Part shown: piece after piece, positions 12,872 to 64,000 of the stretch
How the letters are laid out: each line of letters starts with the position of its first letter
Position numbering within the stretch: the stretch's first letter is position 1
Assembly (NCBI RefSeq): GCF_000143415.4
Contig: NW_003314348.1
Coordinates: 764,700 to 828,699, forward strand
Length of the DNA: 64,000 nucleotides
DNA from: Selaginella moellendorffii
Lineage: Eukaryota > Plantae > Lycopodiophyta
Reading direction: 5' to 3'
Position numbers and translations under genes: made by a program
Notes under the pieces: model-generated
The model's database searches: none
Seen by the model: the letters and a program-made list of their open reading frames with translations, nothing else
Told to the model about the DNA's origin: nothing

Positions 12872-12891
12872 GCTGGACATCTTTTTCTTCG

Positions 12892-12965
12892 TAGGGATGA
12901 CAGGATTCGAACCTGCGGCCGTTTGTACCCAAAACAAACGCGCTACCGAGCTGCGCTACATCCCT
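12892..12965 (-). tRNA. trnP-UGG: tRNA-Pro(UGG), plastid-type sequence in nuclear context
   Basis: AGGGATGTAGCGCAGCTCGGTAGCGCGTTTGTTTTGGGTACAAACGGCCGCAGGTTCGAATCCTGTCATCCCTA folds as a full cloverleaf with anticodon TGG. It closely resembles land-plant chloroplast trnP-UGG, not cytosolic tRNA-Pro. Confidence 0.92.
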
Positions 12966-30960: not shown

Positions 30961-31378
30961 TAGGCTTTGCAATTTAGATGAGCCTTCTGCTAATCTTGTG
31001 TATGAACTTGGTGTATATTAATACCATGCTTACAAAGTGAAATGATATAGTTTGCATCAGAAATGCCAGTAATAACAACATTAGAAACCAATCTATGTTT
31101 GAGTTTTAGAATATTAGTTGGGATTCAGTGATGAAACCTCCAAGGTTCCTCGAAGATCCTTTAGACAGTGTAGTACTCGTTTCTTTAGGATACAGGTTTA
31201 ATGCCGGGTCTTTCATAGCAGCTAAGATATTTGCTTATCTTTTGTTTTCTTATTCTCGCAATGCTGGCCAAAGAGAAGATCCCCACCTCATGCTCCTCGT
31301 AAAAAGAAGTTCAAAGATTCTCTTCCCAGGCCAAAAGCTTGGTCAAAAAGTTAAAAAGAGGACAAAACAAACTAAAAG

Positions 31379-31449
31379 TGCACTGCCCGGGAATCGAACC
31401 CGGGTCTGTACCGTGGCAGGGTACTATTCTACCACTAGACCAGCAGTGC
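31379..31449 (-). tRNA. Cytosolic tRNA-Gly(GCC)
   Basis: GCACTGCTGGTCTAGTGGTAGAATAGTACCCTGCCACGGTACAGACCCGGGTTCGATTCCCGGGCAGTGCA: 71-nt cloverleaf followed by T runs. Confidence 0.96.
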
Positions 31450-38155: not shown

Positions 38156-41100
38156 ATAAAATGGTGGCCGCTTGTGTGTAGATAAGCCTCTGTGCAGTTG
38201 TTGCGAAGAATAAATATATAAACAGAGCGTGTTTGTGTGATTTTCACTTGGTTGTCAGTTTGGTCTGGTTGTCTAAAAATTGCTGTTGCCAAGCTGAGAT
38301 TCATAATAGTAACTAAGATTTAGTATGATTTAGATAAGAATGTCAGACACATACTTGACGCTGCCATAGATCCTGATCCTGACGCCTTCCAGTGATAGAT
38401 GCTTTAGTAAAGAATATACCTAGAATAGCAAAGTATATTTTAAAATATTCTTTAATTCGGAAGACCAGATACTGGCTTTTGATCCGCGAGAAGAGATCCA
38501 GAGTCACTCTTACTTCACTGCAGCATGATCGAAGTCCACAAAACCAAGTCGTCCTAGCTCTTGAGCGCCATACTATCGAAAGCTCTTCCCTTCTCCTTGA
38601 CTGGCTTGGATGCAAGTATCATAAAGCTGATCCTATCGATGTCCCTGAGAGAAGTGCGTATTCATGGTAAGCTCCATAAGTTGGAATTGATATGTTGGTT
38701 GGCCAGGCTGCTAGAATATCAACGCCTGGAGCAGCGATATCGGGCTACAAACAATCGCTCATGTAAGTCATGGATGAAACAATGCTTTGCTTTCTAAGTC
38801 CACTCCACATCAAATCAATCCATCCCGAATGGAGGCCCGCAGCACTAAAATCTGCACCAGGTAGCTCATCAAACAATTGCCAAAGATATGCTCATCACCA
38901 ATTCAATGTAGCAAGCACCAGGGATAACACAAATGCCACAATATCAAGACCAGAAACTATCCCATCCAATCCATTTGGCTTTGGCTCCAGCCCTAAAAGC
39001 AGTTGATCCAGGACTTATGTTTAATGGTTGAGAATTAAGTATATTCTTTATATCTAAAGCAAATCAAAAACTATAATTATATGTTTTGACAGTAAAAGTG
39101 ATTATTATTTCCAGGTGTGAGTGCATGGAATATAGAAATAGAATACAGAAATATACATATTAATTAACCCAAAATCTCTAATTTATATATAAGAGTGAGT
39201 GGTTCAAATAGAAATATTTCAGTTGTTACATATGCATAATTTCTAAAGGATTGGCCCATTAAATATTTGTAAGTTCATGAGTTTAAACTTCCCAAACCTA
39301 ATATTATTCAAATCTAAAAACTAAATATTTCAAAACCCTTAATCAACTTGATAAAAGGGTGCACTTTTATTTATAAGCCCTTTTATAAAATATAAAAATG
39401 GAAATATGGAAATGTGCATATTAAATAGCCTAAAGCCATTAGCTTATATATAGAAGTGAGTGGTTTAGATTGAAACTAATTTAACAGTTATCAAAATCCC
39501 ACTATATTAATATTAATATACATCATTGTAACCATACCTTTAGACTTCACATATGGATATAGATTTAAATCTAAATCATCAAAATAAATATAACCATTAT
39601 TTATTTTATATATTCTATTAGTATATGTTTAACTTTGCCAACTATACCATGAATCTTTTGTTATAAATTCTTCTTTTTCTCTAACTTAAAACTTAATAAA
39701 GTTAATTAAAATATCTTTAAGATCTTAGTAAGTTTTTAATTATATTAAAATTATCATTTAATGTTTCTCTCCAAATAATAGAATTTCCATATATATTACA
39801 GCTTTGTAGATCATTTATCATATCTCGTTTCTAATTAACTAAAAACATTATTTATATAAAAAATCAGATATATACATACTTGGTTTAAGTTGAATAAATT
39901 TCCTGGCAAGAATCTAATTTTAAATATTCATTTTAAATTATAAATAGTCAAATTTCTTTTTCTACGTTTCCAATGAAATCAAATCAAAATAAATAAATTA
40001 AATCTCTCTTAAATTTTAGAAAACCCTATATTCTAAGCATAATATTGAATTTTACACAAAAATGAATAAATTCTATATTTAGTTAAGACTTTATTCTTAT
40101 AGATTCACTTCATCAACTTTATTTTCCATTTTTACCTTTAATGCATTCCTCCTCACTAGAAAACCTCTTAGTGTTCTTGTGGCCATAGTGGCTCCTTCTG
40201 TTGTTTGACTTCTTTATTCTTCCCAAGCTTCTGTATGCTTTGTTTTGCTAGAAATCTCCTAACAAATTAATTTGTATTTTCATTTTGGAAATCTCTTTAG
40301 AAATTGCTTTTTTATTTTTTGTTATGTGCTTGTATTATTCCAACATTGTTCCATTATTATTCCAACAATATTATATCAATTTTAATTCATCATTTTAAAT
40401 GTGAAATGGATTTCTTTTAGGCCAATTAATTAATAAGTGATATTTGGCCAATTGCACTTTATAGGATTTTGACATTTTACTTTGCTAAAAAGCCTTTGCT
40501 GCTTTTGTACAATTCATCCCAATTGATCGACCCTATATAAGAAATAAAAATGGAAAGCCCTTTATAAGAAATAAGAATGGAAAGAGAATGAAGCAAATTA
40601 ACTATGACATAGTAATGGTTACTCTTTTTATGGAAGCTTTGGCATTATACCTCCTTTTCAAATTTTCTTTTTTGCAGTTTAAAATCATTTAGGAACAGTA
40701 TACTAATTAAGGTTCTTGAAGCTTTGTGGGCATATTCAACTTTGCCATAATTAAAACTAGGCAAATGAGAAGAGTAGGAAGCCCTCCAAAGGAGAGGCCT
40801 TTGAAAATAATTAAGAGAAACCATTGGGGTGGGGGGTTTATGTTAGAGTTGCTATCTTTGAACAAAAATTTGGACAAAAAGAAGTTGGTCATACATATCT
40901 GATTTACAAAAGATCATGATGTCCATAAGTGGTTCAACCCTAGTTTCTTAAATTTTAGACATTATAGCATGGTTTAGGCACTTATAAATATTTTATAAAA
41001 TCATATTTTTTTGTCTTTTATATCTTATCAAAGTTTTACAATGAAATCAGTTCAATGGGAACTGAACAGCATATTGGCACTGGCCCATGCCCTAAAATTG

Positions 41101-43230: not shown

Positions 43231-43669
43231 ACATCTTGTCACACAGCTTTGACTGTCGGAAAGTCTCGACTTCTCCTTCCAGATAGCGTTGCCTCAAGAG
43301 GTTGAGCCCCTTGATGCCGCATACCCCAAACACTTCGAAGTCGGACTGTACGTGCTGGACCATCATCTCCCCCAGGCCCGCCGAGAGCATACGATCCTCT
43401 ACTTCCTGTTCACTGGCTTCAGCGATCGCAATGAGAATGTCCATCGCACTGCTTCCCACAAAGTTCCGTGCAGTCTTTGAAGAAGGATCCAGCAGTTTAA
43501 CCAGGCCACCGCACCGACGCCAAGACCTTCACCATGCTCGAGCTTGATCCCGCGAGAAGCATCCACAGTTGCGTCCACGAGAGCGACGCACAGCGTGCTA
43601 CTCACCCGCGACCCGTGCCTGCCGAGGTGGCAGTACTCATCAGGGTGGCACGGCGTCGCTGATGTGGAA

Positions 43670-43940
43670 GGGCTTGCAGCCACGGCGGCATGACCGCCAA
43701 GGCCGTGGAGTTCTTCGTCTCGATGATCCACAACTACCAAATTGGCGACCACTGCTCTTGCATGGCGAATCTCCTCGGACGGAAGGATTCATTCGCAAGA
43801 TGCCGTTTCAAGCTGCAGCGTCGGTGTGGATGACGCTGCTGGGAGCTTGTAGAACTCGAACGAAGGAGGCCAGTGATCAGGTATCCGATATCAACCCCGA
43901 GCACGCACAGAGTTATATAGTGCTTCTCCAATGTCTACGC
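43670..43940 (+). pseudogene. PPR L2/S2/E-domain fragment (copy A)
   Basis: ACSHGGMTAKAVEFF...MANLLGR, a frameshift, then MPFQAAASVWMTLLGACR...SYIVL. Confidence 0.75.
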
Positions 43941-44181
43941 AGAGAACTAAACAAGAACGAAGGAGTTGCTTAGCTCAGTGAGAAACTATAAGAAGTACCT
44001 GTCATGAGTTTTGATTACTGTGGAGCGTCATAGGCTCGTTTGCCCATTGCGGGCGTATGCACTGAGCAGATTCATCCAGAGGAGTGTTTCATCTTGAGGT
44101 CCCGAATCTGCCATACAATTGCATCGGAGAAAAGGGCAGGAATTTAAAGAGGAGGAACGAAGGTTAGGTTATCGTTCCGAA

Positions 44182-45156
44182 ATGAGGCTTTTGGGGCAAC
44201 GACCAGTGGATAGTCATGAACGAGCAGCGGAGATTGCTGTACAATCGCTCAACATACTCAAAGGCATGTCGGTCAAGGCGCCAGATCCTGGGCGGCTGGA
44301 TGAGTGCCTCACATGTTTGGCGTTTAGTTCATGGCAAGGGATGTCGAAGCAGGAAATCTTGGGCACGCTGCTGCGTTTAGGGGTAACAGTCGATTACTTA
44401 GCTTCGAAGCACAGGGTTCTTCTGAGCAGGCTGACTGAAAGGCCAGTGGAGAAGCCGCTCCCCTCAGTCGATGATCACAAGCGACGCCGCAGCTTGCAGC
44501 AAGCTAAGCAGGAGAAGCAGCAGCTGCTGAGTTTCTACAAGCTGCTGGATGCATGGAAGCCCAGCCGCTGGAGCAGGAGTAGTCACCGCCTGAAGAAAGC
44601 CTACTCAAGCCTGATGGATGAGGCTAAGCCTCAGGCTGAGGCAGCCATGCGGAAGAAGTGCCGTGGCCTGCTGTTGGAGAGGAGCAGTGGCAATGACTTC
44701 TTCATCTTCAACAACCTGTTCATGAGCTGCTCGATGAGGGGATTCCAGATGCTGGCGATCCAACTGACAATGAATAGTCAGTACCTACATGCGCTCAAGA
44801 GAAAGGCGAGCAGTAGCAGCAGCAGCCTGGCCTTACTCCTCGAGTTCTTGTCGCGCTTCCTTGAGCTCATGTTGGGAGGAATCCTGTTACGGATGAGGGA
44901 CCTGCGCCTCGTGTTCATACACTGGTGCGCCGTGTTGCTGGAGGAAGTGGAGGTTGCCGAGTCCAACATTTGCTGGAAGCACCTCATCGAGCTCTCCACC
45001 ACGCTTCTCAGCGAGGACGAGGAGAAGCTGTTGCAGCTCCTCTGCAAAACCTGCCGCCCCACCAATCACCTCCTCCACGGCATGCGGGTTGCTAGGAAGA
45101 ACACCAACGCGGAAATTAGATCACACGGCCCGAATATTGTGAATGTTTTGTATTAA
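44182..45156 (+). CDS. Intronless hypothetical helical protein (~324 aa), intact in copy A
   Basis: Open frame from ATG 44182; the homologous frame in copy B is disrupted. Confidence 0.5.
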   Translation: MRLLGQRPVDSHERAAEIAVQSLNILKGMSVKAPDPGRLDECLTCLAFSSWQGMSKQEILGTLLRLGVTVDYLASKHRVLLSRLTERPVEKPLPSVDDHKRRRSLQQAKQEKQQLLSFYKLLDAWKPSRWSRSSHRLKKAYSSLMDEAKPQAEAAMRKKCRGLLLERSSGNDFFIFNNLFMSCSMRGFQMLAIQLTMNSQYLHALKRKASSSSSSLALLLEFLSRFLELMLGGILLRMRDLRLVFIHWCAVLLEEVEVAESNICWKHLIELSTTLLSEDEEKLLQLLCKTCRPTNHLLHGMRVARKNTNAEIRSHGPNIVNVLY

Positions 45157-47240
45157 ATTTAACAATACATTGGATTATATTGAATTGTGTTACCAGGAGT
45201 CTGGATGATTTGTCTTTGGAGTAGTCACTTTAATAATAACCATCAATTGCATGGAAAATTCCTGACTCACATGGGTGTAATCTGCGCTCTAGTTCTTTGT
45301 ATGGAAGAACATACGGAATTGGGCAACATCCTCCACAAACCTAATGACATTTTACCTGCAAAAATCCACCCAGCAGGTACTTTACATATGAATTAGGAAA
45401 GACTAACCTCACTAGTGTGGCAAGGGAATAGGGAATAGAAAACATTGGGTAGAATTTATTATAGGAGATGGCCATCTTGTAGATGCAGGAAGTGTTTTCT
45501 CCCGATGAGCACCTGCAGTGTGAGCTGTGTGATCTATCCTGGTTCTTGTAAAATAAAGCTACGTAGAAATGAATCAAATATAGAGCTGGAAGGCTGACAT
45601 AGCTTCTGCCTCTTAGTAAAGAATATTCTATTAGAATATATATTATTGCTTAATTGATTGATCTTAAAAAATGCTAAGAATACTCTTATGTAATAAATTA
45701 AAATTGTGAGGTCCTAAGTGTATGGCTATGATGCTATATATTAATATTAAATTAGTTTCAAACTAGGTTTTTGGGTTTATTGATATACTTATTTCTATAT
45801 TTAATTTCCATATTCCATGCATTCATATTATAGAGGTGATGGGTAATTTTGATTATCCTTGAGGAGTGCTTAGATTTGGGATTTTGGTTTAGATTTAAAT
45901 TTTGCATTGTTTAAATCTCTTTTTCCTTATAATTTTTTAAATTTTTTCTCTTTTACTTCTTCCTTTTCATTCATCTTTATAGTAGAGTTACAATTTCTTC
46001 CTTTTTTAACTTTGGAGTAACAATTAGTGTAATTATTCGATGCTATGTGGTTGTAATTAAACAATCAAACTCAAATGATAGTACCATTCATGACATATGA
46101 TATAATTTATTGCCAATCTTTGTGTCTAGTTGGAGTTCTTCTATAAGAATTCTAAAGATAATGTGTATCAGTAGTTCAATCAATTTACAGTGATTATCAC
46201 ATATCATTTTTTAGATGATGTTGGTGTTTATGTGAGTTTCCCATGTATTTTTAAGGGACAACATTGTAATGGTACAATAGTTTAAATGCAATCACTTATG
46301 CAGATTGGAATATTCTTCCAGATATTTTTAAATGCATATTTAGACATATCAATGATTGTGTTGATGCCTTTTAATAATTACATTATTTTAATTAAAAGCC
46401 ATTTTAACTTAGTGATGCAATTTGGTGCTTGATTTTGAAGCTTTTTGTTTCATGCAAAGCCAAATATGTCAGAATGGATCAAATTAGGAATGTTATGGTG
46501 AATATTTTGTCAAAATTTTGTAAAACTTGTGTATGCACTTATTTTAGCCACTTTTGATAATATATGAGATGTTGCCTCTTCTACTTTTCGATATATGTCT
46601 TTTAACTCCATTTCACATGGGAGATGGTTTTGTTCTAATGGAGGTTCTAATGGATGTGGTTGTGGCCTTGATATCCACTATTAGGCATCTAATGAAGTTG
46701 ATCATATTTATCAATGTTGGTATTTTCTAAATTGATAACTTGTATTTCTTAGGTGGAGTATTAGGTGTAACATATGTAATTTTCACTCTTTATCCTATGC
46801 TGATTTATCATTACCATAGAATAACCACAAAATAAAACTTAAACTCTTTATGTGCCACATGTTATATACTATATGTCTAAAGATAATGGAACATGTCTAA
46901 AGACAGTGGAACGAAATTTAAATTTTAAAACTTTAAGCCACTGAATGAAGGAATAGAGCTAAATTCTAAAACTTACACTTAAGGAGCGAATGAATTAGAG
47001 CACAAAACAACTCCTTAAACATTCAGCCCAAAGAACAAAGAAATAGAAACATAGAACGACATTGAAACAATTTTAAAGCTTTTAGCCTCCCAATGCCAAA
47101 ATCAACACACAAAATCAAGCCAAATAAAGTATAATGTTATTTCAGCATACCAGTGAAAGATAAATGATAAATAGTTAATTATTTATTGATGGCAAACATA
47201 TATGAATAAGAGTCAATAAGAATGATTTACTTTGGTATGC

Positions 47241-48869: not shown

Positions 48870-50525
48870 CTACGTCGATGTGTTGGGGCGATTGCCGGCA
48901 AGGATCAAAGAGATTTCCAGGCCCCGACTGAAAGCTTGGTTGAAGAGGAGCCGGCTCTGGAAGGTAGACACGAACGGGAACCACGAGAGAATGGCGACAG
49001 GGACGAAGATCACGGTTCCCATCCCAGCGTCGTAGAGACGAGCCAAAGAACGCATCGATTTCCACAGGCCCAAGAACTTGATGACCGGTCTCCAGGCAAT
49101 AGCAATCTGGAAGAACTCACACAGGTATGATGGTGGAAAGAACTAAGACTTTCTTTACCGAGAGGATTCCCCATCCGGTTGGAAGGAGGGCCAAGGCGGA
49201 AGCAAAGATGTCTCCCACTGTAAGCGTCGACGCGATGATAGCGGCGATTAAGCCGCCGAGGAGAAGGATGAAAATCACGCCTTGCATTAGCCGGAGAAAC
49301 AACTGGATGTTTGTTGCTGTCTTCTGGCTCAAGCTGAAAATCTGGAGAAGCAATGAATGGAAGAGTTCATCGTCAATACACTGTCAAGAAGCTGGAAGAA
49401 CCTCACCTTGAACAAGAGTATGAATGCCGCAAATACCACCCAAGAGACGCCATAAGCCTGGAACAAGAGGAACAGACGGTAATATGATACAAAAAGATAG
49501 TGTAAGCTTACCGTCAAGGACGTGCTAGTTCCGGTAACATGGAGCTTATAGACGACACCGTACTGGAAAATGAAGAAACGCAAGCTGAGGATTGTTTCCA
49601 AGATCCTGGATCTGAACGTGCGAATGTGCTCCTGGTATGGTACACATGAATGGTTAGATTTGCGGAAAAGCGGCTTAAACAGTTTCTTACTTGCTCTTCA
49701 TCCCACCATGCTTCCCAGCTCTCTTCTCCTTTCACTCCGACTCCACCTTTATACAAAAGCCAGTTCGTCCAGTCATCGAAGTCGTCCACAGTTCTGAAGT
49801 TAAGACGAAGACAGTGGAGTAATCAACCATAGAAAAATTACAGTTGTGCTTACTTTTGCCATTCGAAGCCGGACGGATTGAACAAGTAGGGAGCATACAT
49901 CCACGAAATGGCCAGAAACCAACTGCTAAACGACAAGAGAAAGTAGCTGGTTCCACTTGAAACACCATAAGCCATGTATACAATCAAAAGCATAACGACT
50001 TCCAGGCTGGTCAAAGCAAGAATGAGTGCGTTTTCCACGATAAAATAATCAACGTACCCTTTTACAAAATGACTGCGAGAATAAAGCCGATAGTTTTCAG
50101 CGAATGGAATGTGCCGAACCACGAAACCTCTTCCGGTAGCCCGATACTTAACAAAAACAAAAGGACTTTTAGAGACGATAAACGTCAACGGAAACATTAA
50201 CCTTGGCACCGCCATGCAGAATTGTTCTACCAAAATAATGACTTTTCGTTCCGAGAGAAAACGTAAAGAACACGGAGCACAGTTGCAATTGCATTGTGAT
50301 AAAACTGATGATTGCCTGCGATCACGTAGAGATGAGCATCGAAGCTGTTTTAAAGAGCATTACCTTAAGCACCCCCTGTTCTAATACAAGCCCCATAATC
50401 ATAGGTACTGCCGTAAGAACACCGATTTGGAAAAGAAATTGAGCATTCAGAGCACTCTCAAGGGCCGTGTTATCCAAAACGTCCGCTGTATTCCTCAAGC
50501 TCGCTTCGACACCAGATAAAGACTG
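48870..50525 (-). CDS. GSL: Callose synthase (CalS9/10-like, GSL), last ~9 exons only
   Basis: ALNAQFLFQIG, YRATGRGFVVRHIPFAENYRLYSRSHFVKG, FNPSGFEWQKTV and STFQSRLLFNQAFSRGLEISLILAG. No upstream exons recognised in the window. Confidence 0.9.
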
Positions 50526-50615
50526 CAAGAACTCCGAAAAGTTACAATTTGCACGAAACTTTTAAATGTTTTTGACGCACCAGATATATTTTTCCATATC
50601 TTGCTGCTGAGAGCC

Positions 50616-52540
50616 TGCTCGAGCTTGAAACATCCACAGTTGCGTCCACGAGAGCGACGCACAGCAGCTCCAGCATCCGGTGGAATATTGCCACCGCCTC
50701 TGCCGCGCAGCCGTGCCTGCCCGAGGTGGCGGTACTCATCAGGTGGCACGGCGTCGCTGATGTGAAAGCGCTTGCAGCCACGGCGGCATGACCGCCAAGG
50801 CCGTGGAGTTCTTCGTCCCGATGATCCACGGCTACCAAGTTGGCGACCACTGCTCTTTCATGGCGAATCTCCTCGGACGGAAGGATTCATTTGCAAGATG
50901 CCGTTTCAAGCTGCAGCATCGGTGTGGATGACGCTGCTGGGAGCTTGTAGAACTCGAACAAAGGAGGCCAGTGACCAGGTATCCGATATCAACCCCGAGC
51001 ACGCACAGAGTTATATAGTGCTCTCCAATGTCTACGAAACAAGACCGTTCGCGAACGAGTTGCTTAGCTCAGTGAGAAACTATAAGAAGTACCTGTCATG
51101 AGTTTTGGTTACTGTGGAGCGTCATAGGCTCGTTTTGCATCTTCAAGATGCCCATTGCGGGCATATGCACTGAGCAGATTCATCCAGAGGAGTGTTTCAT
51201 CTTGAAACGGATCTGATTGTCTTGAGGTCCCGAATCTAAAAGCATCGGAGAAAAGGGCAGGAATTTAGAGAGGAGGAACGAAGGTTAGGTTATCGTTCCG
51301 AAATGAGGCTTTTAGGGCAACGACCAGTGGATAGTCATGAACGAGCAGCGGAGATTGCTGTACAATCGCTCAACATACTCAAAGGCATGTCGGTCAAGGC
51401 GCCAGATCCTGGGCGGCTGGATGAGTGCCTCACATGTTTGGCGTTTAGTTCATGGCAAGGGATGTCGAAGCAGGAAATCTTGGGCACGCTGCTGCGTTTA
51501 GGGGTAACAGTCGATTACTTAGCTTCGAAGCACAGGGTTCTTCTGAGCAGGCTGACTGAAAGGCCAGTGGAGAAGCCGCTCCCCTCAGTCGATGATCACA
51601 AGCCACGCCGCAGCTTGCAGCAAGCTAAGCAGGAGAAGCAGCAGCTGCTGAGTTTCTACAAGCTGCTGGATGCATGGAAGCCCAGCCGCTGGAGCAGGAG
51701 TAGTCACCGCCTGAAGAAAGCCTACTCAAGCCTGATGGATGAGGCTAAGCCTCAGGCTGAGGCAGCCAGTGCCGTGGCCTGCTGTTGGAGAGGAGCAGTG
51801 GCAATGACTTCTTCATCTTCAACAACCTGTTCATGAGCTGCTCGATGAGGGGATTCCAGATGCTGGCGATCCAACTGACAATGAATAGTCAGTACCTAGA
51901 TGCGCTCAAGAGAAAGGCGAGCAGTAGCAGCAGCAGCCTGGCCTTACTCCTCGGGTTCTTGTCGCGCTTCCTTGAGCTCATGTTGGGAGGAATCCTGCTA
52001 CAGATGAGGGACCTGCGCCTCGTGTTCATACGAGGAAGTGGAGGTTGCCGAGTCCAACATTTGCTGGAAGCACCTCATCGAGCTCTCCACCACACTTCTC
52101 AGCGAGGACGAGGAGAAGCTGTTGCAGCTCCTCTGCAAAACCTGCCACCCCACCAATCACCTCCTCCAGGGCATGCGGGTTGCTAGGAAGAACACCAACG
52201 CAGAAATTAGATCACACGGCCCGAATATTGTGAATGTTTTGTATTAAATTTAACAATGCATTGGATTGTATTGAATTGTGTTACCAGGAGTCTGGATGAT
52301 TTGTCTTTGGAGTAGTCACTTTAATAATAACCATCAATTGCATGGAAAATTCCTGACTCACATGGGTGTAATCTGCGCTCAATTGGGCAACATCCTCCAC
52401 AAACCTAATGACATTTTACCTGCAAAAATCCACCCAGCAGGTACTTTACATATGAATTAGGAAAGACTAACCTCACTAATGTGGCAAGGGAATAGAACAT
52501 TAGGTAGAATTTATTATAGGAGATGGCCATCTTGCAGATG
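50616..52540 (+). repeat. ~1.9 kb direct repeat, copy B, abutting the CalS fragment
   Basis: Matches 43535-45485; the ORF carries 10-nt and 20-nt deletions and stops at 51836. Confidence 0.93.
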
Positions 52541-57609: not shown

Positions 57610-58768
57610 TGTAAGGAACCGACTCCCCGAGATGTCGTAGGCTAAAGGATCCCCAAAAGCTTGACCGAAATGACAAAGAGTTCATCGGATGGGACCAAGT
57701 CGAGGATCGAGTCCAAGACCGACTCTAGGACCGAGTTCGAGATAGAGGCCGAAATCGAGTCCGAGACTGACTCGGGGACCGAGTTCGAGTCCGAGTTCGA
57801 GACCGAGTTCGAGACGGAGTCCGAGATCCGAAATCGGGTCCGAGACCGAGTCCGAGGTCGAGTTCGAGGTCGGGTCCGAGATCGGGTCCGAGATCGAGTC
57901 CGAAATCGAGTCCGAGACCGAATCCGAAGTCGGATCCGAAATCGGGTCCGAGATCGAGCCAGAGACTAAGTCCAAATACTAATACGGGTCAAGGGGTGAA
58001 AGCCCAAAGCGTGCGTCTCCCAGGGGGGGGGGGGCTGCAGGGGGTTCCAAAAGTATAGTAGGGATAGTGAGGTCCAGGAACCAGTTTTGAGGGGACTCTC
58101 CAGTTGGGCTTCCAAACCGACTTGAGGTTGGGATTGGGACCGAGAGGCCTTGGGTGGGAGTGAGCATGGACTTGGCTGGTGCTGGAGGGGCCATCCAAGG
58201 AAGTGCTCAAGAGCAGCTCCCACTCCCGAAAGGGAAACCGACTGCGGTGCTTCCGGCTCAGGTGGAGTGGTGCCCCACTTGAGTACCTTGTGGCTCATTG
58301 GTCCTCGCCCTTCCGGGGGCTTGGGCCTTCCCTTCGGGATGGAAGAGAGGGGGTAGAGGTACCCATACCGGGCCGTTAGGCCACGGTGTTTCGCCCCGAC
58401 GTCCCGAAGCAAGTGCTGCACCCAAGACTTGGGATTTAGAGGGTCCCATGATCAAGTCTTGTGGTACCAAGGGGTGTTAGGAATCTGGAGGCTTGGTGTG
58501 CTTGGCTGCTTGTGCCTGCGGGGAGTGTAGCCGAACCTTAAGTCCAGTCTAACCCGGGGAGGGGGATTGGGAGAGATTTGGGAATCCGTAGATGGATGGC
58601 TAACACTCCGTTGCTCGTGCAGTGAGTAACTGAAACCAAGTAGGACCAAGTAGGAGCTGGTACCATAGACGAGAACCTTGGCGAGGGAACTTAGCACAAG
58701 CCAAGGCAGAGTTGGTCGGATAGACGAGGTAAGCTGGCAAATTGGAAAGGAAAAATTTGTGGCTTACA
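57610..58768 (+). repeat. 5' LTR (1159 bp)
   Basis: TGTAAG...CTTACA terminal inverted repeat ending 3 nt before the PBS. Confidence 0.85.
57700..57966 (+). repeat. 6/12-mer tandem array (CCGAGT/TCGAGA/TCCGAGATCGGG variants) inside the LTR
   Basis: Visible degenerate hexamer periodicity, CpG-rich. Confidence 0.9.
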
Positions 58769-58771
58769 ATT

Positions 58772-58784
58772 TGGTATCGGAGCC
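58772..58784 (+). promoter_or_regulatory. Primer-binding site complementary to tRNA-iMet
   Basis: TGGTATCGGAGCC versus the usual TGGTATCAGAGC(C); the change is compatible with G-U pairing. Confidence 0.9.
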
Positions 58785-58827
58785 TCTTCCTCAGTTCTAG
58801 CGAAGGATAGAGGCGGATTGTTGGGAG

Positions 58828-61800
58828 ATGGCAAGGGCAGGACGTAAGCGAACCCAGGCGGAGACGGAACCTCCTCCAGAGCTGGAGCCTCCGGTCGAAC
58901 AAGAGGCTATGGATGAGGAATCGTTGCATGAGGAGGACTCCAGTGAGGCAACTTCCAAACAGGAGTCCGGTGGTGAGGTTCGGTCGTCCAAGGCTCGATT
59001 GGACGTTCTAGAAGGGCAATTGGCACAGACCAATGCCCTGCTAGAGACTCTCATACGCAAGCTAAAGCGTGACGAGAAGCGAAAGAAAAAGCAAAAGACC
59101 GCGGATGCTGGCAGCGCAGAAGGTGCGGACCCTTCGGCAGGGACTGAGGCAAAACCAGACAAGGTCGAACAGACCGAAGTGGAATCAGTCCCGCAGGCAG
59201 TTCCCAAGTACAAACCGAAGCCCCCACCGGTCTTCAAGGGAGTGAACGACTATAAGGTGGTGGAGGATTGGTTTTACGATATGGAGGACTACTTCCGAGC
59301 GTTGCAATTACCGAGCTCGGAGAAGGTCCCATGTGCAAAACCATACTTGGCAGATAACGCCAAGTCTTGGTGGAGAACAACGGAGGCCAACGAAGGACCG
59401 GTGGCCACTTGGGAAATGATGAAGGCGAGGATCCGCGCAACTTACGTTCCTCCGAATGCTACTCTGCACCTAAGGGACGAGCTGAGTAGGCTGAAGCAAA
59501 CCGGAACCATTCAGGAGTATGTGAATGGGTTTATGGCAAAGAGGATACTTGTCACGGACATGGGGGATATGGATGCGTTCCATGCCTTCATATCAGGTTT
59601 GCAAACCTGGGCTCGCGGCGAAGTAATGCGGTGGAACCCGACCAACTACAAGGAAGCGTTGGATGCGGCCATCAAGGTGCATTTCAACGATAACCTGCGA
59701 AAAGGGAACACGACGGGGTCGGGATCCACGTTTAGCAAAGGGGCCAAACCAAGGGGAACGTTTAGTAGAGGGAAATTCAAGAAGAGTTTCTCTAAGAATG
59801 AGTCCTGGGGGTTCCGGAAAGGCAGATCCGGTGGCCAGCGAGCGAGTACGTGGGGGAGTCAGGCGAAAAGAGACAAACCCACGGATAAGAAGGTCAAGTC
59901 ATATAGCAGCGTGGGAAACAACGTATGCTACAACTGCGGTGAAGCGGGACACTTCTCGAGGGAATGTCCCTACCCGAAGAAGGCCAGAGCCAATATGGCC
60001 ATCAAGTCGGGTGAAGTCCAAACAGAGGTATGTGATCCAGTCCCTAACTCAAAGTTACTCATTACACGAGCAACTTTGGTAGAGAGTCGTTCGCGACATC
60101 TACTAGCCCTCCGAGGGAAGCTCGGAGGTAGCTTTGTTAAAATCCTTATTGACACGGGTGCTTCGGATAATTTTGTGGCTGCAGACATAGTCCGGCAAGC
60201 CGGACTAACGGTGCAGCGGCTAGGCGAACCAAGGACTATAGAGTTTGTTCAAGGTAGCCAAAGCACCGATGAGGTACTTCGACAAGCGAGAGTCGAAGTG
60301 GGGACTTGGAAGGTGGACATGGACTTCACCGTGTTGGACATGGCGGGATTTGACGTGATCTTCGGAATGGACTGGTTCAATCGATTCGTGGTAGCCCTGC
60401 ATGGGCAAGGTAGAAACCTTGTGGTACTGGCGAATGCCCAAGGAAGAAGATCTAGGGTGGAGGCCCAAGATCTAAAGGTAGGGCAAAGCAAGGCCAAAGA
60501 TTCCTGCTTAAACCTGGTGTCCACGAGAGGGCAACTCACTAAAGGAACTAAGGCGGCCTTTTTGTGCTTACTCTCGGTGAAGAGTGACAAAAAGACAGGA
60601 ATGGAAGAAGTACCTTTAGTGATCCAACTGGTGTTGGACCAATTCCAGGATACCATGCCGGAGGAGCTACCGGCGGGGCTACCCCCAGCACGACCGATAG
60701 AACATAAGATTGAGCTGGTCGAGGGTGCTGAGGCAGTGGTTCGTCCCCCTTATCGTTTGAACGAAAAAGAACTCAAGGAGCTCAAGTGCCAACTAGAGGA
60801 GTTGGTGGACAAAGGGTATGTTAGGTTGAGCAAGTCGCCGTATGGGGCGCCGGTGTTATTTGTGAAAAAGAAAGATAGATCTATGCGCATGTGCATAGAC
60901 TACCGCTTGCTCAACAAGTATACAAAGAAGAACAAGTACCCTTTGCCAAGGATTGAGGACCTGTTCGATAGGTTGGGAAAGGCAAAATACTTCTCGAGGA
61001 TTGACCTAAGGTCAGGATACTACCAGATCAGGGTAGCCGAGGAAGATGTCGAGAAGACAACCTGTCGAACGAGGTATGGGAGCTTTGAGTTTCTGGTGAT
61101 GCCCTTCGGGCTATGTAATGCGCCGGCAACGTTTTCGGCGCTAATGAACCACGTCTTTGTACCCTATCTGGATCACTTCGTGGTCGTCTATATCGACGAC
61201 ATCCTGATCTATAGCGAGACGCTAGAGGAGCATGCCGAACACTTGGCGAAGGTGTTTGAGAAACTAAGGGAACACAAGCTGTATGCTAAAGAGAGCAAAT
61301 GTGACTTTGCTCAACAAGAGGTAAAGTTTCTCGGGCATGTGGTGGGCCAGGACGGGCTCAAGGTGGACCCGGAGAAGGTCCAAGCGATCCAGGAATGGGA
61401 GCGACCATCCAATGTACACGAGTTGAGGGCATTCCTGGGGCTATGCAACTACTATCGAAAGTTTATCAGACACTATTCGAGAGTAGCCCTGCCCTTAACG
61501 GACCAAACAGGAAAAGGGAAGATGGTGTGGACAGCGGAATGCGAGGCGGCATTCGTCCACCTCAAAGGGAAGTTGAGGAAGGCTCCCGTATTGGCATTAC
61601 CAGACTTTGGTAAGGACTTTGAGGTAGAAACGGATGCTTCGGACTTTGCGTTGGGCGCAGTTTTGAAGCAAGACAACCATCCGGTAGCGTTCTTCTCGAA
61701 GAAGCTGGACAAGGCTCAACGGAAGTGGCCTGCCCACAAGAAGGAATTGTTTGCGGTGGTCAAGGCGCTCAAGGAGTGGCGACACTACCTTGGGAGACAC

Positions 61801-63599
61801 TTCAAGGTTTACACGGACAATGTGGCAACGAAACACTTCTTGTCACAGCCCGACCTAAGAGGGAAACAAGGTCGGTGGGCCAACGCCTTGGCCGAGTTTG
61901 ATTGCAAAATTCTGTACAAGCCTGGGAAGAGCAACATCGTGGCGGATGCGCTAAGTCGAAAAGCGAGCTTGAGGTTGGCAATATCCAGCGCAACAGCAAC
62001 CTTCTGGGACGATGTGCGGACAGCATATGAGAATGATGGTCTAGCACAGGAAGTGTTGCTGAGGAATCTAGAGGCGCGGGAAGCTCACCAGAGAGGTGAG
62101 CTGCTAACGGAAGAGAAAACGGGCTATGCGGAACGCAACAGACTCATTTATTACAAGCAAACGAGGGTGTATGTTCCAGAAGGGGAACTAAGGAAGGTGG
62201 CCTTAGAAGAGTGTCATGACGGACCTCTTGTGGGACACGGTGGAGTGCCCAAGACGATGGGCTTACTCAAAAGGAAGTACCATTGGCCAGATATGGCTAA
62301 GGACGTCCAAGACTATGTAAAGACATGTCCAACATGTCAGCAGGTAAAAGCCGTGACTAAGGCTAGTGGGGGCTTGTTGCAAAGCATCCCAATTCCAGAT
62401 CACCCGTGGAAATGTCTTACGATGGACTTCATCACGGGACTCCCCCCAAGCGAGGGGTTTGATGCGATATTTGTGGTGGTGGACCGATTTTCGAAAATGG
62501 CACATTTCATACCCACCACAACAGAAGTGGATGCGGAAGGTGTGGCGAAGCTGTTCTTTGAGCAAGTGGTTCGAGTGCGGGGAAGACCAGAAGAGATCAT
62601 CTCAGATCGAGATAAGATCTTCACCAGTAGGTTCTGGAGGACTCTCCTTGAACAGTATCGCACCAAGTTGAAATTCAGCACAGCCTATCACCCACAGACA
62701 AGTATGGGGTATTAAGTCAAGTTGTTGGCACTAACACTTCTTGACAGACGGACAAACGGAAAGGGTGAATAGGCAGCTGGAGGATTATTTGCGATGCTAT
62801 GTCTCGGGAGACCAGACCGATTGGGTAAGTCATTTGGGACTTGCGAAAATGTGTTATAACAACTCACCACATTCGAGTATCGGGGTGAGTCCATGGGAAG
62901 TCATCAATGGGCGAGCTATTGAAGGTCCTGTGGAACTCGGCGTGGCCGAGTATCATGGAGAGTTGCCCGCAGTGGAGGCATTCACGGCAGAAAGACTCAG
63001 CATTTGGAATCTAGTGAGGGATTCCTTGGAACGGGCTCAACAAAGGCAAACCAAATACGCGAACCAGAAGCGTCGGGATGTAGAGTTCCAAGCTGGGGAG
63101 AAGGTGTGGCTGAACACCAAGAACCTCAAACTACCAAGTGGGATCAGCCGAAAGTTGACCCAAAGGTAAAGATGCATGTATTCCTGTAAATGAATTGATC
63201 TTGAGTTCCTTAAGCAGGTTCGCGGGGCCTTACGAGATTGAGGCACGAATCGGTAAAGTGGCTTACCGACTCCGACTTCCTCGAGAGATGGGGAAGATGC
63301 ACCCAGTGTTCCACGTGAACTTACTCAAGCCGTACTTTGAGGATCCGCTTCGCAAGGACCAAGTGAGACCTTTGCCTGAGGTTATCCAAGGGGAAGAGGA
63401 ATACGAAGTCGAGGCCATCCTCAATGCGCGCAAGAGCAAGCGACAAGGACGCGAGGTGAGAGAGTTCCATGTGAAGTGGAGAGGATTTCCACACTGCGAA
63501 GCAACATGGGAACCGGAGGAGAACCTAGCGAACGCTCGAGATCTAGTGGAGGAATTTCTGCAAGGCAGAACTCTATGTACTTATGCAAAATTCAATTAA
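58828..63599 (+). CDS. gag-pol: Gag-Pol polyprotein (gag, CCHC knuckle, protease, RT, RNase H, integrase, chromodomain), integrase split by two introns
   Basis: [63 protein letters not shown] and EYEVEAIL...VKWRGF...TWEPEENL. Removing 62702-62747 and 63166-63217 joins three ORFs into one frame. Confidence 0.92.
62702..62747 (+). other. Predicted 46-nt spliceosomal intron in the integrase core
   Basis: GTATGG...CTAAC...TTCTTGACAG; contains an in-frame stop, and removal restores HPQT(N)GQTERVN. Confidence 0.85.
63166..63217 (+). other. Predicted 52-nt spliceosomal intron before the GPY module
   Basis: AAG|GTAAAG...TTAAGCAG|G, AT-rich; removal restores KLTQRFAGPY. Confidence 0.88.
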
Positions 63600-64000
63600 A
63601 AATATCAATTTGCAAAGTTGAGCAAGTGCAATATGTTGGGACCTGAAGGCGCGCCAAAGGTAAGCTAATTAGCATGGGTTGGATAGGTCGACCAGGCGTA
63701 GGGCACTACGCCCGACTCCCCGCGGGGATGTCGAATCCGTAGACGTATTCTACGGAGGTTGGGTTCGAGTCCCAACCCCCTAGTAAAGCAAGGCTGGGTT
63801 CAAGTCCCGACCTCATACTAGGGCGTGGTGAGGTGAGGAGTATAGGGACACCTATATTCCGTTGTCATGGGCTCTTGGCCGGGGAGGCTAACTTAGGCAC
63901 ACCGCTAAGTGGGGGGATGCCCCCGGAGACATGGTCAACAAGTCGTAGGATAAACGAGATGTTCGATGTGGGCATCGAACTTCTTCTAGATACCTAGATT

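What the first reader, a model, noticed from the sequence alone, without database searches (positions are those of the whole stretch)
63660..63989. Densely structured 3' RNA element, itself bracketed by splice signals
Seen: back-to-back hairpins after the pol stop: GGCGTAG/CTACGCC (63695-63712), CGAC-TCCCC/GGGGA-GTCG (63713-63733), TCCGTAGA/TCTACGGA (63736-63756), GGTTGGG/CCCAACC (63757-63777), CCCTAGTA/TACTAGGG (63778-63823), GGAGTATAGG/CCTATATTCC (63837-63860), ACTTAG/CTAAGT (63891-63910) inside CCGGGG/CCCCGG, and GTTCGATG/CATCGAAC (63961-63980). The block starts at a consensus donor AAG|GTAAGC (63660) and ends at CTTCTTCTAG| (63989). Inference: a packaging or nuclear-export element, analogous to retroviral CTE/RTE, that would be present only on unspliced genomic RNA. 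An intron-retaining genome would need such an element.
Basis: partly seen in the sequence, partly recalled or inferred. Interest (0 to 1): 0.8.

Follow-up and report, generated by a model that had tools for sequence, protein, structure and literature searches.

The report
tRNA-armed RNA fold, not an intron
Near the end of a spikemoss jumping gene lies a 330-base stretch predicted to fold into tight hairpins, two of them shaped like the T-arm of a transfer RNA; it is likely a tag that gets the element's full-length RNA packaged and copied, but the splice site proposed at its far end is likely an accident of this one copy.

Summary
The hairpins are real: all named arms are at the stated places, folding z = -5.0, six perfect stems of 6+ pairs against 0.5 in shuffles. 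The block is the 3' UTR of SM1-Galahad, a known Selaginella chromovirus. Common family variants keep the pairing (7 of 7, p = 0.075); two-sided covariation could not be tested. The intron reading is not supported. Sibling copies leave this copy after 63988 and run into the polypurine tract and 3' LTR, without the AG. TTCTTCTAG also precedes the tract in three loci of another family. The block is 330 nt and 55% GC, against 46-52 nt and 35-41% GC for the integrase introns. No junction was seen, but RNA cover was thin. Best reading: a packaging/replication tag on genomic RNA (0.45); export element 0.2. Earlier notes of this scan found the same module on other DNA of this genome.

The parts
57610..58768 (+). 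5' LTR, 1159 bp, TG...CA, with a poly-G track and a 12-nt tandem array
   Evidence: sequence; fits the SM1-Galahad description
58729..58800 (+). Candidate 72-nt leader intron (GAG|GTAAGC ... TTCTAG|) that spans the LTR end and the primer-binding site; same donor hexamer as at 63660
   Evidence: sequence; lead from earlier notes e1-10602938 and e1-10681392; splicing not tested here
58772..58783 (+). Primer-binding site, tRNA-Met type
   Evidence: sequence; type per PMC3350952 section 2.1
58828..62715 (+). gag-pol ORF, 1295 codons (Gag, zinc knuckle, protease, RT, RNase H, first part of integrase); its stop lies inside intron 1
   Evidence: 1295 aa as published for SM1-Galahad
62702..62747 (+). 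Integrase intron 1, 46 nt, GT-AG, 41% GC; splicing predicted, not seen in my runs
   Evidence: absent from relatives; family donor context CAG|GT
63166..63217 (+). Integrase intron 2, 52 nt, GT-AG, 35% GC
   Evidence: skipped exactly in one contig of RNA-guess run X15, kept in most DNA copies
63218..63599 (+). Last pol exon: SH3-like part and chromodomain, to the read-through stop
   Evidence: Pfam PF24626, PF00385
63565..63617 (+). AT-rich stretch (26% GC) with AATTAA/ATTAAA: candidate early poly(A) region or weak GC-AG intron
   Evidence: sequence; X16 and X18 contigs stop at 63546 and 63551, X19 reads through
63657..63665 (+). Donor-like site AAG|GTAAGC; no partner acceptor shown; in most copies its last two bases can pair in a hairpin 63664-63683
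   Evidence: (no variant of 5% or more listed)
63677..63733 (+). 5' hairpins (63677-93, 63695-712, 63713-33); variable part, replaced by 15 letters in one diverged relative
   Evidence: record 2
63736..63756 (+). Hairpin at the 5' edge of the conserved core
   Evidence: other elements share its stem but differ upstream (loose end at 63751)
63757..63777 (+). T-arm 1: 7-bp stem, loop UUCGAGU
63778..63823 (+). Long stem capped by T-arm 2 (63795-63809, loop UUCAAGU)
   Evidence: weak mascRNA match E = 8.1
63837..63939 (+). 10-bp hairpin and a multibranch domain that depends on G-U pairs and forms on the + strand only
63961..63988 (+). Last hairpin and pyrimidine run that in sibling copies directly precede the polypurine tract and 3' LTR
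63989..64000 (+). Sequence foreign to the family: this copy is likely cut off or interrupted just before its polypurine tract
   Evidence: depth drop and loose end; no other exact copy in the window

Best explanation
The block is the folded 3' untranslated region of the retrotransposon SM1-Galahad, and its core with two tRNA-type T-arms is likely a tag that lets the element's full-length RNA be picked up by its own particle and copied. Shown: it lies between the pol stop and the polypurine tract, is present across the family, and carries two T-arms in the RNA sense. Predicted: the hairpins and the multibranch domain. Inferred: the T-loops dock on GG-containing loops or on each other to give a compact, tRNA-elbow-like surface that Gag or a host tRNA-binding protein recognises. 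It is likely not removed as an intron. Genomic and messenger RNA are more likely told apart elsewhere: by the leader intron over the primer-binding site, and perhaps by early polyadenylation in the AT-rich stretch just before the block. The lone GGTAAGC would then be a U1-binding site that favours read-through.
For: Folding z -4.97 and -4.01. Six perfect stems of 6+ pairs vs mean 0.53, max 3, in 300 shuffles. Two T-arms: 21 of 20,000 shuffles give one, 0 give two; in the 64-kb window the only other T-arms are in two real tRNA genes, and 80 other chromovirus loci (290,118 bases) have none. All 7 listed variants at 10-35% frequency keep, add or avoid a pair, three by G-U wobble and one turning G-U into A-U. 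G-U tolerance points to RNA. The core 63757-63945 has higher summed depth (0.87-1.45 million) than its flanks (0.36-0.64 million). Contigs about 80% alike keep it, one while lacking the 5' hairpins. Loose ends at 63751 and 63784 show elements that share the core with other flanks and a T-arm with a different stem. Ty3, a relative, needs UTR or POL sequence for packaging and has part of its primer site in the 3' UTR (PMC4974528, passages).
Against: No function was tested. No two-sided covariation could be counted: no genome is held, three scans for sibling copies found nothing, and the read tool gives single-site variants without linkage. The pair-keeping tally is only suggestive (p = 0.075 for 7 of 7; p = 0.04-0.14 for 14 common differences); the family letter at 63813 breaks a predicted pair. 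Strong folding is not unique: 4 of 26 other chromovirus 3' UTRs reach z -4.4 to -6.0. The minus strand folds as well. Best-mapped packaging signals of Ty1 are at the 5' end. Summed contig depth is a poor measure. The poly(A)/U1 step rests on sequence, on two contigs that stop 5 nt apart, and on analogy to EVD (PMC5580714, passages), where the U1 site lies upstream of the poly(A) sites, not downstream as here.
Confidence: 0.45

Rival explanations
1. The module is a nuclear-export element that gets intron-retaining genomic RNA out of the nucleus, as MusD MTE or IAP RTE do, perhaps through tRNA-handling factors.
For: Same position as most retroviral export elements, between the last ORF and the 3' LTR (PMC4588558, abstract and opening text). 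The element keeps introns in its genomic copies and so must export unspliced RNA.
Against: No Rfam match at gathering level. Plants are said not to use TAP/NXF1, and export of plant LTR RNA has not been studied directly (PMC12786077, passages). tRNA export receptors need mature tRNA ends (recalled), which an internal arm lacks.
Confidence: 0.2
2. The two T-loops interlock into a tRNA-elbow-binding platform that captures or positions the primer tRNA, joining the 3' end of the genome to priming at the 5' end.
For: Two T-loops 35 nt apart. Interdigitated T-loops bind the tRNA elbow in three unrelated RNAs (PMC4810234, passages). Ty3 uses its 3' UTR to bind the primer tRNA.
Against: Both loops are 7-nt tRNA-type loops closing their own stems, which more often seek a D-loop partner (recalled). 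No long complementarity between block and LTR or leader (longest 9 nt). No 3D or binding test.
Confidence: 0.12
3. The block is an alternatively spliced intron from the donor at 63660, with its acceptor before the purine tract or inside the 3' LTR, so that spliced mRNA loses the tag.
For: The donor is a perfect consensus, has no listed variant, and is one of only two AGGTAAG in the element (0.68 expected), the other being the leader donor. The LTR start offers a TAG at LTR position 28. RNA cover is too thin to exclude it.
Against: AG absent in the best-supported sibling group. The same TTCTTCTAG precedes the tract in L045, L058 and L059. 330 nt, 55% GC, 22% U against 46-72 nt, 35-42% GC, 31-35% U for the two integrase introns and the leader candidate. 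X19 reads through the donor; no joint or loose end at 63659 was listed in 6 RNA or RNA-guess runs (both tables were cut).
Confidence: 0.12
4. The T-arms are DNA-level B-boxes (TFIIIC sites) or the remains of captured tRNA or SINE sequence, and the folding is a by-product.
For: Both loops match the B-box core GGTTC named in PMC10886601 (passages). A one-mismatch A-box lies 33 nt before the first. Selaginella has a tRNA-bearing LTR element, Helenus-1_SMo.
Against: No tRNA called, no TTTT terminator. Stems extend beyond the box and are kept through G-U variants. Ten other helices have no tRNA likeness. Helenus carries its tRNA sequence in the LTR, not in the interior.
Confidence: 0.1

Closest known systems
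SM1-Galahad, Galadriel-clade chromovirus of Selaginella moellendorffii (PMC3350952; section 2.1 read whole, other passages, supplement part 1 of 4 and a word search of it)
   Same: LTR over 1 kb with poly-G track, tRNA-Met primer site, 1295-aa ORF without chromodomain, two short ORFs after it, the last with the chromodomain.
   Different: The main text holds no 'intron' or 'splic', and section 2.1 describes no 3' structure. The two short ORFs are better read as exons. This copy leaves the family sequence just before its polypurine tract.
Retroelement RNA transport elements: MusD MTE, IAP RTE, MPMV CTE (PMC4588558 abstract and opening text; PMC12786077 passages)
   Same: Several hundred nt of folded RNA between the last ORF and the 3' LTR of an element that must export unspliced RNA.
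   Different: No Rfam match; two tRNA T-arms; host said to lack the TAP/NXF1 route; export not tested.
Ty3 3' UTR cis signals (PMC4974528, passages)
   Same: Same superfamily, tRNA-Met primer, 3' UTR involved in primer binding and packaging.
   Different: Ty3 pairs with the primer's T and D arms; here the RNA copies the T-arm instead. Ty3 RNA is not known to be spliced.
tRNA-like structures: viral TLS and mascRNA (PMC4810234 passages; Rfam RF01684)
   Same: Canonical T-arm in a non-tRNA transcript; weak mascRNA alignment over 63755-63814 (15.4 bits, gathering score 42.5).
   Different: Internal, two arms, no acceptor stem with CCA end, no anticodon arm, no cloverleaf.
Helenus / Cassandra, LTR elements with small-RNA sequence (PMC10886601; part 1 of 6 and passages)
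   Same: tRNA-like boxes inside an LTR retrotransposon; one family occurs in the same species.
   Different: Those are tiny gene-less elements with the box in the LTR as a Pol III promoter; here the arms are in the interior of a coding element and pairing appears to be kept.

Membership tests
SM1-Galahad | Single 1295-aa Gag-Pol ORF lacking the chromodomain, followed by two short ORFs | tested here: met
SM1-Galahad | LTR over 1 kb, TG...CA, poly-G track, tRNA-Met primer site | tested here: met
SM1-Galahad | Over 80% nucleotide identity to the published consensus | not testable with these tools
   the word Galahad is not in the supplement text; 3 of its 33 pages are pictures
Galadriel clade | RT-RH-IN groups with seed-plant Galadriel elements | tested here: inconclusive
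   sister to a 47-row clade rich in seed-plant proteins, SH support 100, long branch; rows carry no clade labels
Spliceosomal intron (63660-63989) | Consensus 5' donor shared by the family | tested here: met
Spliceosomal intron (63660-63989) | 3' AG acceptor shared by the family | tested here: not met
   best-supported sibling group leaves after 63988 with T; one-base caveat
Spliceosomal intron (63660-63989) | AU-rich and short like the element's other introns | tested here: not met
Spliceosomal intron (63660-63989) | Junction reads 63659^63990 | tested here: inconclusive
   none listed; 12 raw reads and 4 contigs in all from 6 runs
CTE / RTE / MTE export element | Position between last ORF and 3' LTR | tested here: met
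CTE / RTE / MTE export element | Sequence-structure match to the described elements | tested here: not met
   Rfam scan of 62500-64000: 3 matches, all E 1.9-8.1 and far below gathering score
CTE / RTE / MTE export element | Promotes export of unspliced RNA | not testable with these tools
   needs a reporter assay
tRNA gene or tRNA-derived SINE | Cloverleaf, or A-box plus B-box plus terminator or tail | tested here: not met
Conserved structured RNA | Two-sided compensatory changes across copies | tested here: inconclusive
   only single-site variants available; 7 of 7 keep pairing, p = 0.075

The most novel reading that the evidence does not exclude
An intron-bearing plant LTR retrotransposon has built a double tRNA-T-arm RNA device next to its polypurine tract that grips the primer tRNA or hijacks host tRNA-handling proteins, and so licenses only full-length RNA for export and packaging. 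It would be the first defined 3' tRNA-mimic replication signal of a plant LTR element, with the lone U1 site acting as a read-through switch.
Probability: 0.2. Interest if true: 0.78.

Novelty: new variant of a known kind. Interest (0 to 1): 0.45.

Why it matters
Signals that select LTR-retrotransposon RNA for export and packaging are poorly defined even in yeast (PMC4974528, passages), and export has not been studied directly in plants (PMC12786077, passages). A compact 210-nt module with an unusual, easily mutated motif (two T-loops) in a high-copy family gives a direct handle on that question, in an element that must keep unspliced RNA apart from spliced mRNA. The host element is published; the module was not found in the 10 paper searches run here (the two aimed at it are 44 and 76).

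Tried and rejected
No whole genome is held, so copies could not be aligned. Family-specific DNA patterns found nothing in metagenome, prokaryote-genome or viral contigs; exon 3 found nothing in viral contigs. A generic double-T-arm pattern gave 23 viral loci; the 20 scanned hold tRNA genes, mostly next to the match: unrelated. A search for longer proteins holding exon 2 gave no hit at E 1e-20 among 229 candidates (weak evidence). No RNA holder is on record. Raw RNA runs X22 and X23 gave 9 and 3 reads, too few for junctions, strand or level. Parts not covered by RNA contigs are no evidence. blastn of the block found no second copy in the window and no match in 80 related loci. A long-range pairing with the LTR or leader was not found. 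The bacterial promoter/terminator scan is irrelevant to a plant; its 'terminator' is the last hairpin plus the pyrimidine run. No variant of 5% or more is listed at the T-loop adenines 63768 and 63803, so no sign of methyl-A miscopying (5 rows hidden). A third pol intron at 63565-63617 was considered: donor GC, acceptor AAG, X19 reads through; left open. The first tree run did not finish and was repeated with FastTree. A search for Selaginella intron lengths gave a listing only, not used.

Full report
Observation. All quoted hairpin arms and both splice-like motifs are at the stated places. The 330-nt block folds at -146.2 kcal/mol, z -4.97, with 0 of 100 shuffles as stable. Seven of the eight named stems have mean pair probability 0.91-1.00; the outer CCGGGG/CCCCGG pairing is not in the best fold. 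The block holds six perfect Watson-Crick stems of 6 or more pairs, against a mean of 0.53 and a maximum of 3 in 300 shuffles. The reverse strand folds as well (z -5.10), so the energy does not name the strand; the T-loops and the G-U-dependent domain 63861-63939 point to the + strand RNA.

What the element is. The block follows the last coding exon of a Ty3/gypsy chromovirus: LTR 57610-58768, primer site 58772, a 1295-codon gag-pol ORF from 58828, then two short frames, the last with a chromodomain. This matches SM1-Galahad of Selaginella moellendorffii point by point (PMC3350952, section 2.1 read whole). I infer the host from that match; runs name it only as organism A. RT-RH-IN places it as sister to a 47-row clade rich in seed-plant proteins (FastTree, 80 of 120 proteins with over 600 aligned residues; long branch). 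The two frame breaks are 46- and 52-nt GT-AG inserts at sites where relatives are continuous: 55 of 57 and 74 of 75 loci that cover the sites are spanned by one match. One contig of RNA-guess run X15 skips the second insert exactly and keeps the first; DNA run X1 covers both inserts. So the premise of an intron-retaining genome is reasonable.

The 3' boundary. In DNA run X1 the summed depth falls from 369,000 to 12,000 after 63987. The best-supported loose end (17 contigs, agreement 0.96) leaves after 63988 with T, a G-rich purine tract and the same letters that open the 5' LTR. The block therefore ends at the polypurine tract, and this copy's last 12 bases are foreign to the family; they have no other exact match in the window. 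Two cautions: 166 loose ends were not shown, and a one-base offset of the tool's place would restore the G. Even then the motif needs no splicing: TTCTTCTAG stands just before the tract in L045, L058 and L059 (one family), and a pyrimidine run plus AG in 4 of 40 loci with a tract-plus-TG pattern. The block is 330 nt, 55% GC and 22% U; the two integrase introns and the leader candidate are 46-72 nt, 35-42% GC and 31-35% U. Plant introns are U-rich relative to exons (PMC3735527, passages).

The donor. AAG|GTAAGC has no listed variant at 5% or more, but neither has the stretch 63646-63680, so this is no test of selection. It is one of two AGGTAAG in the element, 0.68 expected; the other opens a 72-nt candidate leader intron that would remove the primer site (lead from earlier notes). 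In most copies two letters at 63681 and 63683 complete a 7-pair hairpin 63664-63683 that covers the donor's fifth and sixth bases. No joint or loose end at 63659 was listed in six RNA or RNA-guess runs, but these gave only 12 reads and 4 contigs; the one contig over the donor (X19, depth 3.3) reads through. X16 and X18, from two studies, stop at 63546 and 63551 without loose ends, shortly before an AT-rich stretch with AATTAA/ATTAAA: a weak hint of early 3' ends. In Arabidopsis EVD a U1 site both defines splicing and suppresses early polyadenylation (PMC5580714, passages); there it lies upstream of the poly(A) sites. That a downstream donor can do the same, as in HIV, is recalled, not checked.

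Two hairpins carry the tRNA T-loop G-UUCRAGU-C, at 63757-63777 and 63795-63809, 35 nt apart. Of 20,000 shuffles 21 give one such arm and none gives two. In the whole window the only other ones are in the tRNA-Pro and tRNA-Gly genes, and 80 other chromovirus loci hold none in 290,118 bases, of which 62,577 lie downstream of the chromodomain. ARAGORN calls no tRNA here; Rfam gives only a mascRNA alignment at E 8.1.

Conservation. No copies could be fetched, so I used the variant table of X1 (40 of 45 rows shown, 21 in the block). Seven variants at 10-35%: three keep a pair as G-U (63774, 63779, 63839), one turns G-U into A-U (63809), one would close a mismatch (63794) and two are unpaired (63814, 63870). 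A random transition breaks a pair at 31% of positions, so 7 of 7 has p = 0.075. Seven places where this copy differs from most: four in loops or unpaired, two fit the alternative 5' hairpin, one (63813) breaks a terminal pair; over all 14, p = 0.04-0.14. The seven rarer variants (5-9%) are all CpG changes; one breaks a pair. No two-sided change could be shown. Contigs about 80% alike keep the core: record 2 lacks 63681-63738 but aligns over 63739-63842, record 4 aligns over 63582-63918. Loose ends at 63751 (24 contigs) and 63784 (23 contigs) show elements with the same first stem but other upstream sequence, and a T-loop on a different stem. So the conserved unit is about 63736-63945, not the span between the splice-like motifs.

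Control. Of 26 other chromovirus 3' UTRs (picked by hand from the 80 loci: tract-plus-TG pattern, 200 nt or more), z ran from +0.3 to -6.0, and 4 reached -4.4 or lower, against -5.35 for the block by the same method. A folded 3' UTR is therefore not unique; the T-arms are, within this sample. The sample is the best 80 of 529 confirmed stretches from 5 of 64 parts of the collection, and few of them are close kin.

Mechanism. I commit to a cis-acting tag on genomic RNA for particle loading and copying (0.45). Ty3 needs UTR or POL sequence for packaging and binds its primer partly through the 3' UTR (PMC4974528, passages). T-loops build and recognise tRNA elbows, and viruses use such mimicry to recruit host factors (PMC4810234, passages). 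Rivals: export element (0.2), primer-gripping double T-loop (0.12), true intron with some acceptor (0.12), DNA B-boxes or tRNA relic (0.1). Location and motifs are shown, the fold is predicted, the function is inferred.

Print and earlier notes. PMC3350952 has no 'intron' or 'splic' in its main text; PMC2864245 and PMC6317226 were seen as passages, the latter naming Ogre as the intron case. Two searches for tRNA-like or T-loop elements in retrotransposons listed nothing on this module; the library lacks most subscription papers, Repbase notes and figure content, and I read only part 1 of 4 of one supplement. Earlier unchecked notes of this scan describe the same module on other pieces of this genome, shared with a gene-less element, and the integrase and leader introns. 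They are leads, not support; sharing with a gene-less element was not shown here beyond the loose ends.

Verdict. Real structured element, wrong boundaries and wrong intron claim; new variant of a known kind; interest 0.45.

Noticed in passing
window 62702-62747 and 63166-63217: Two tiny GT-AG introns split the integrase; the first falls at HPQT/DGQTER, so unspliced RNA would give an integrase without its last catalytic glutamate (residue role recalled). The second is skipped in one RNA-guess contig.
   Followed up: partly
window 58729-58800: Candidate leader intron with the same GTAAGC donor; it would remove the LTR end and primer-binding site, so spliced RNA could not be reverse-transcribed.
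   Followed up: partly
window 63989-64000: This copy departs from the family exactly before the polypurine tract: likely truncated or interrupted; the window ends 12 bases later.
   Followed up: partly
window 57688-57994: A 12-nt tandem array (CCGAGATCGAGT-like, about 15-25 copies, CpG-rich) in the first third of the LTR.
   Followed up: no
window 62668-63467 (run X15, record 9): The contig that skips intron 2 has 255 foreign letters before 62668 and keeps intron 1: likely a host transcript running through a fragment of the element.
   Followed up: no
L045, L058, L059, L064, L067, L069, L071 (downstream of the chromodomain): A family of other chromoviruses has 450-780-nt 3' regions, some folding at z -4.4 to -6.0 without T-arms, and a tract-like motif both right after the stop and again further on.
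   Followed up: partly
window 43540-45485 and 50611-52540: A duplicated segment of about 1.9 kb (96-99% alike, 7.1 kb apart) with pentatricopeptide-repeat-like coding sequence (label from recall), next to a glucan-synthase exon at 49853-50359 on the minus strand.
   Followed up: no
window 39118-39596 and 45714-45900: Several AT-rich inverted-repeat pairs about 6.2-6.6 kb apart: possible ends of a DNA transposon.
   Followed up: no
window 12891-12965 and 31378-31449 (minus strand): tRNA-Pro(TGG) and tRNA-Gly(GCC) genes; the Pro gene looks bacterial or organellar in type.
   Followed up: no
L001-L023, around 1501-1560: In phage tRNA clusters a second T-arm often follows a tRNA within 12-40 nt, as if the tRNA 3' end were duplicated; L011 also holds a GOLLD RNA.
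   Followed up: no
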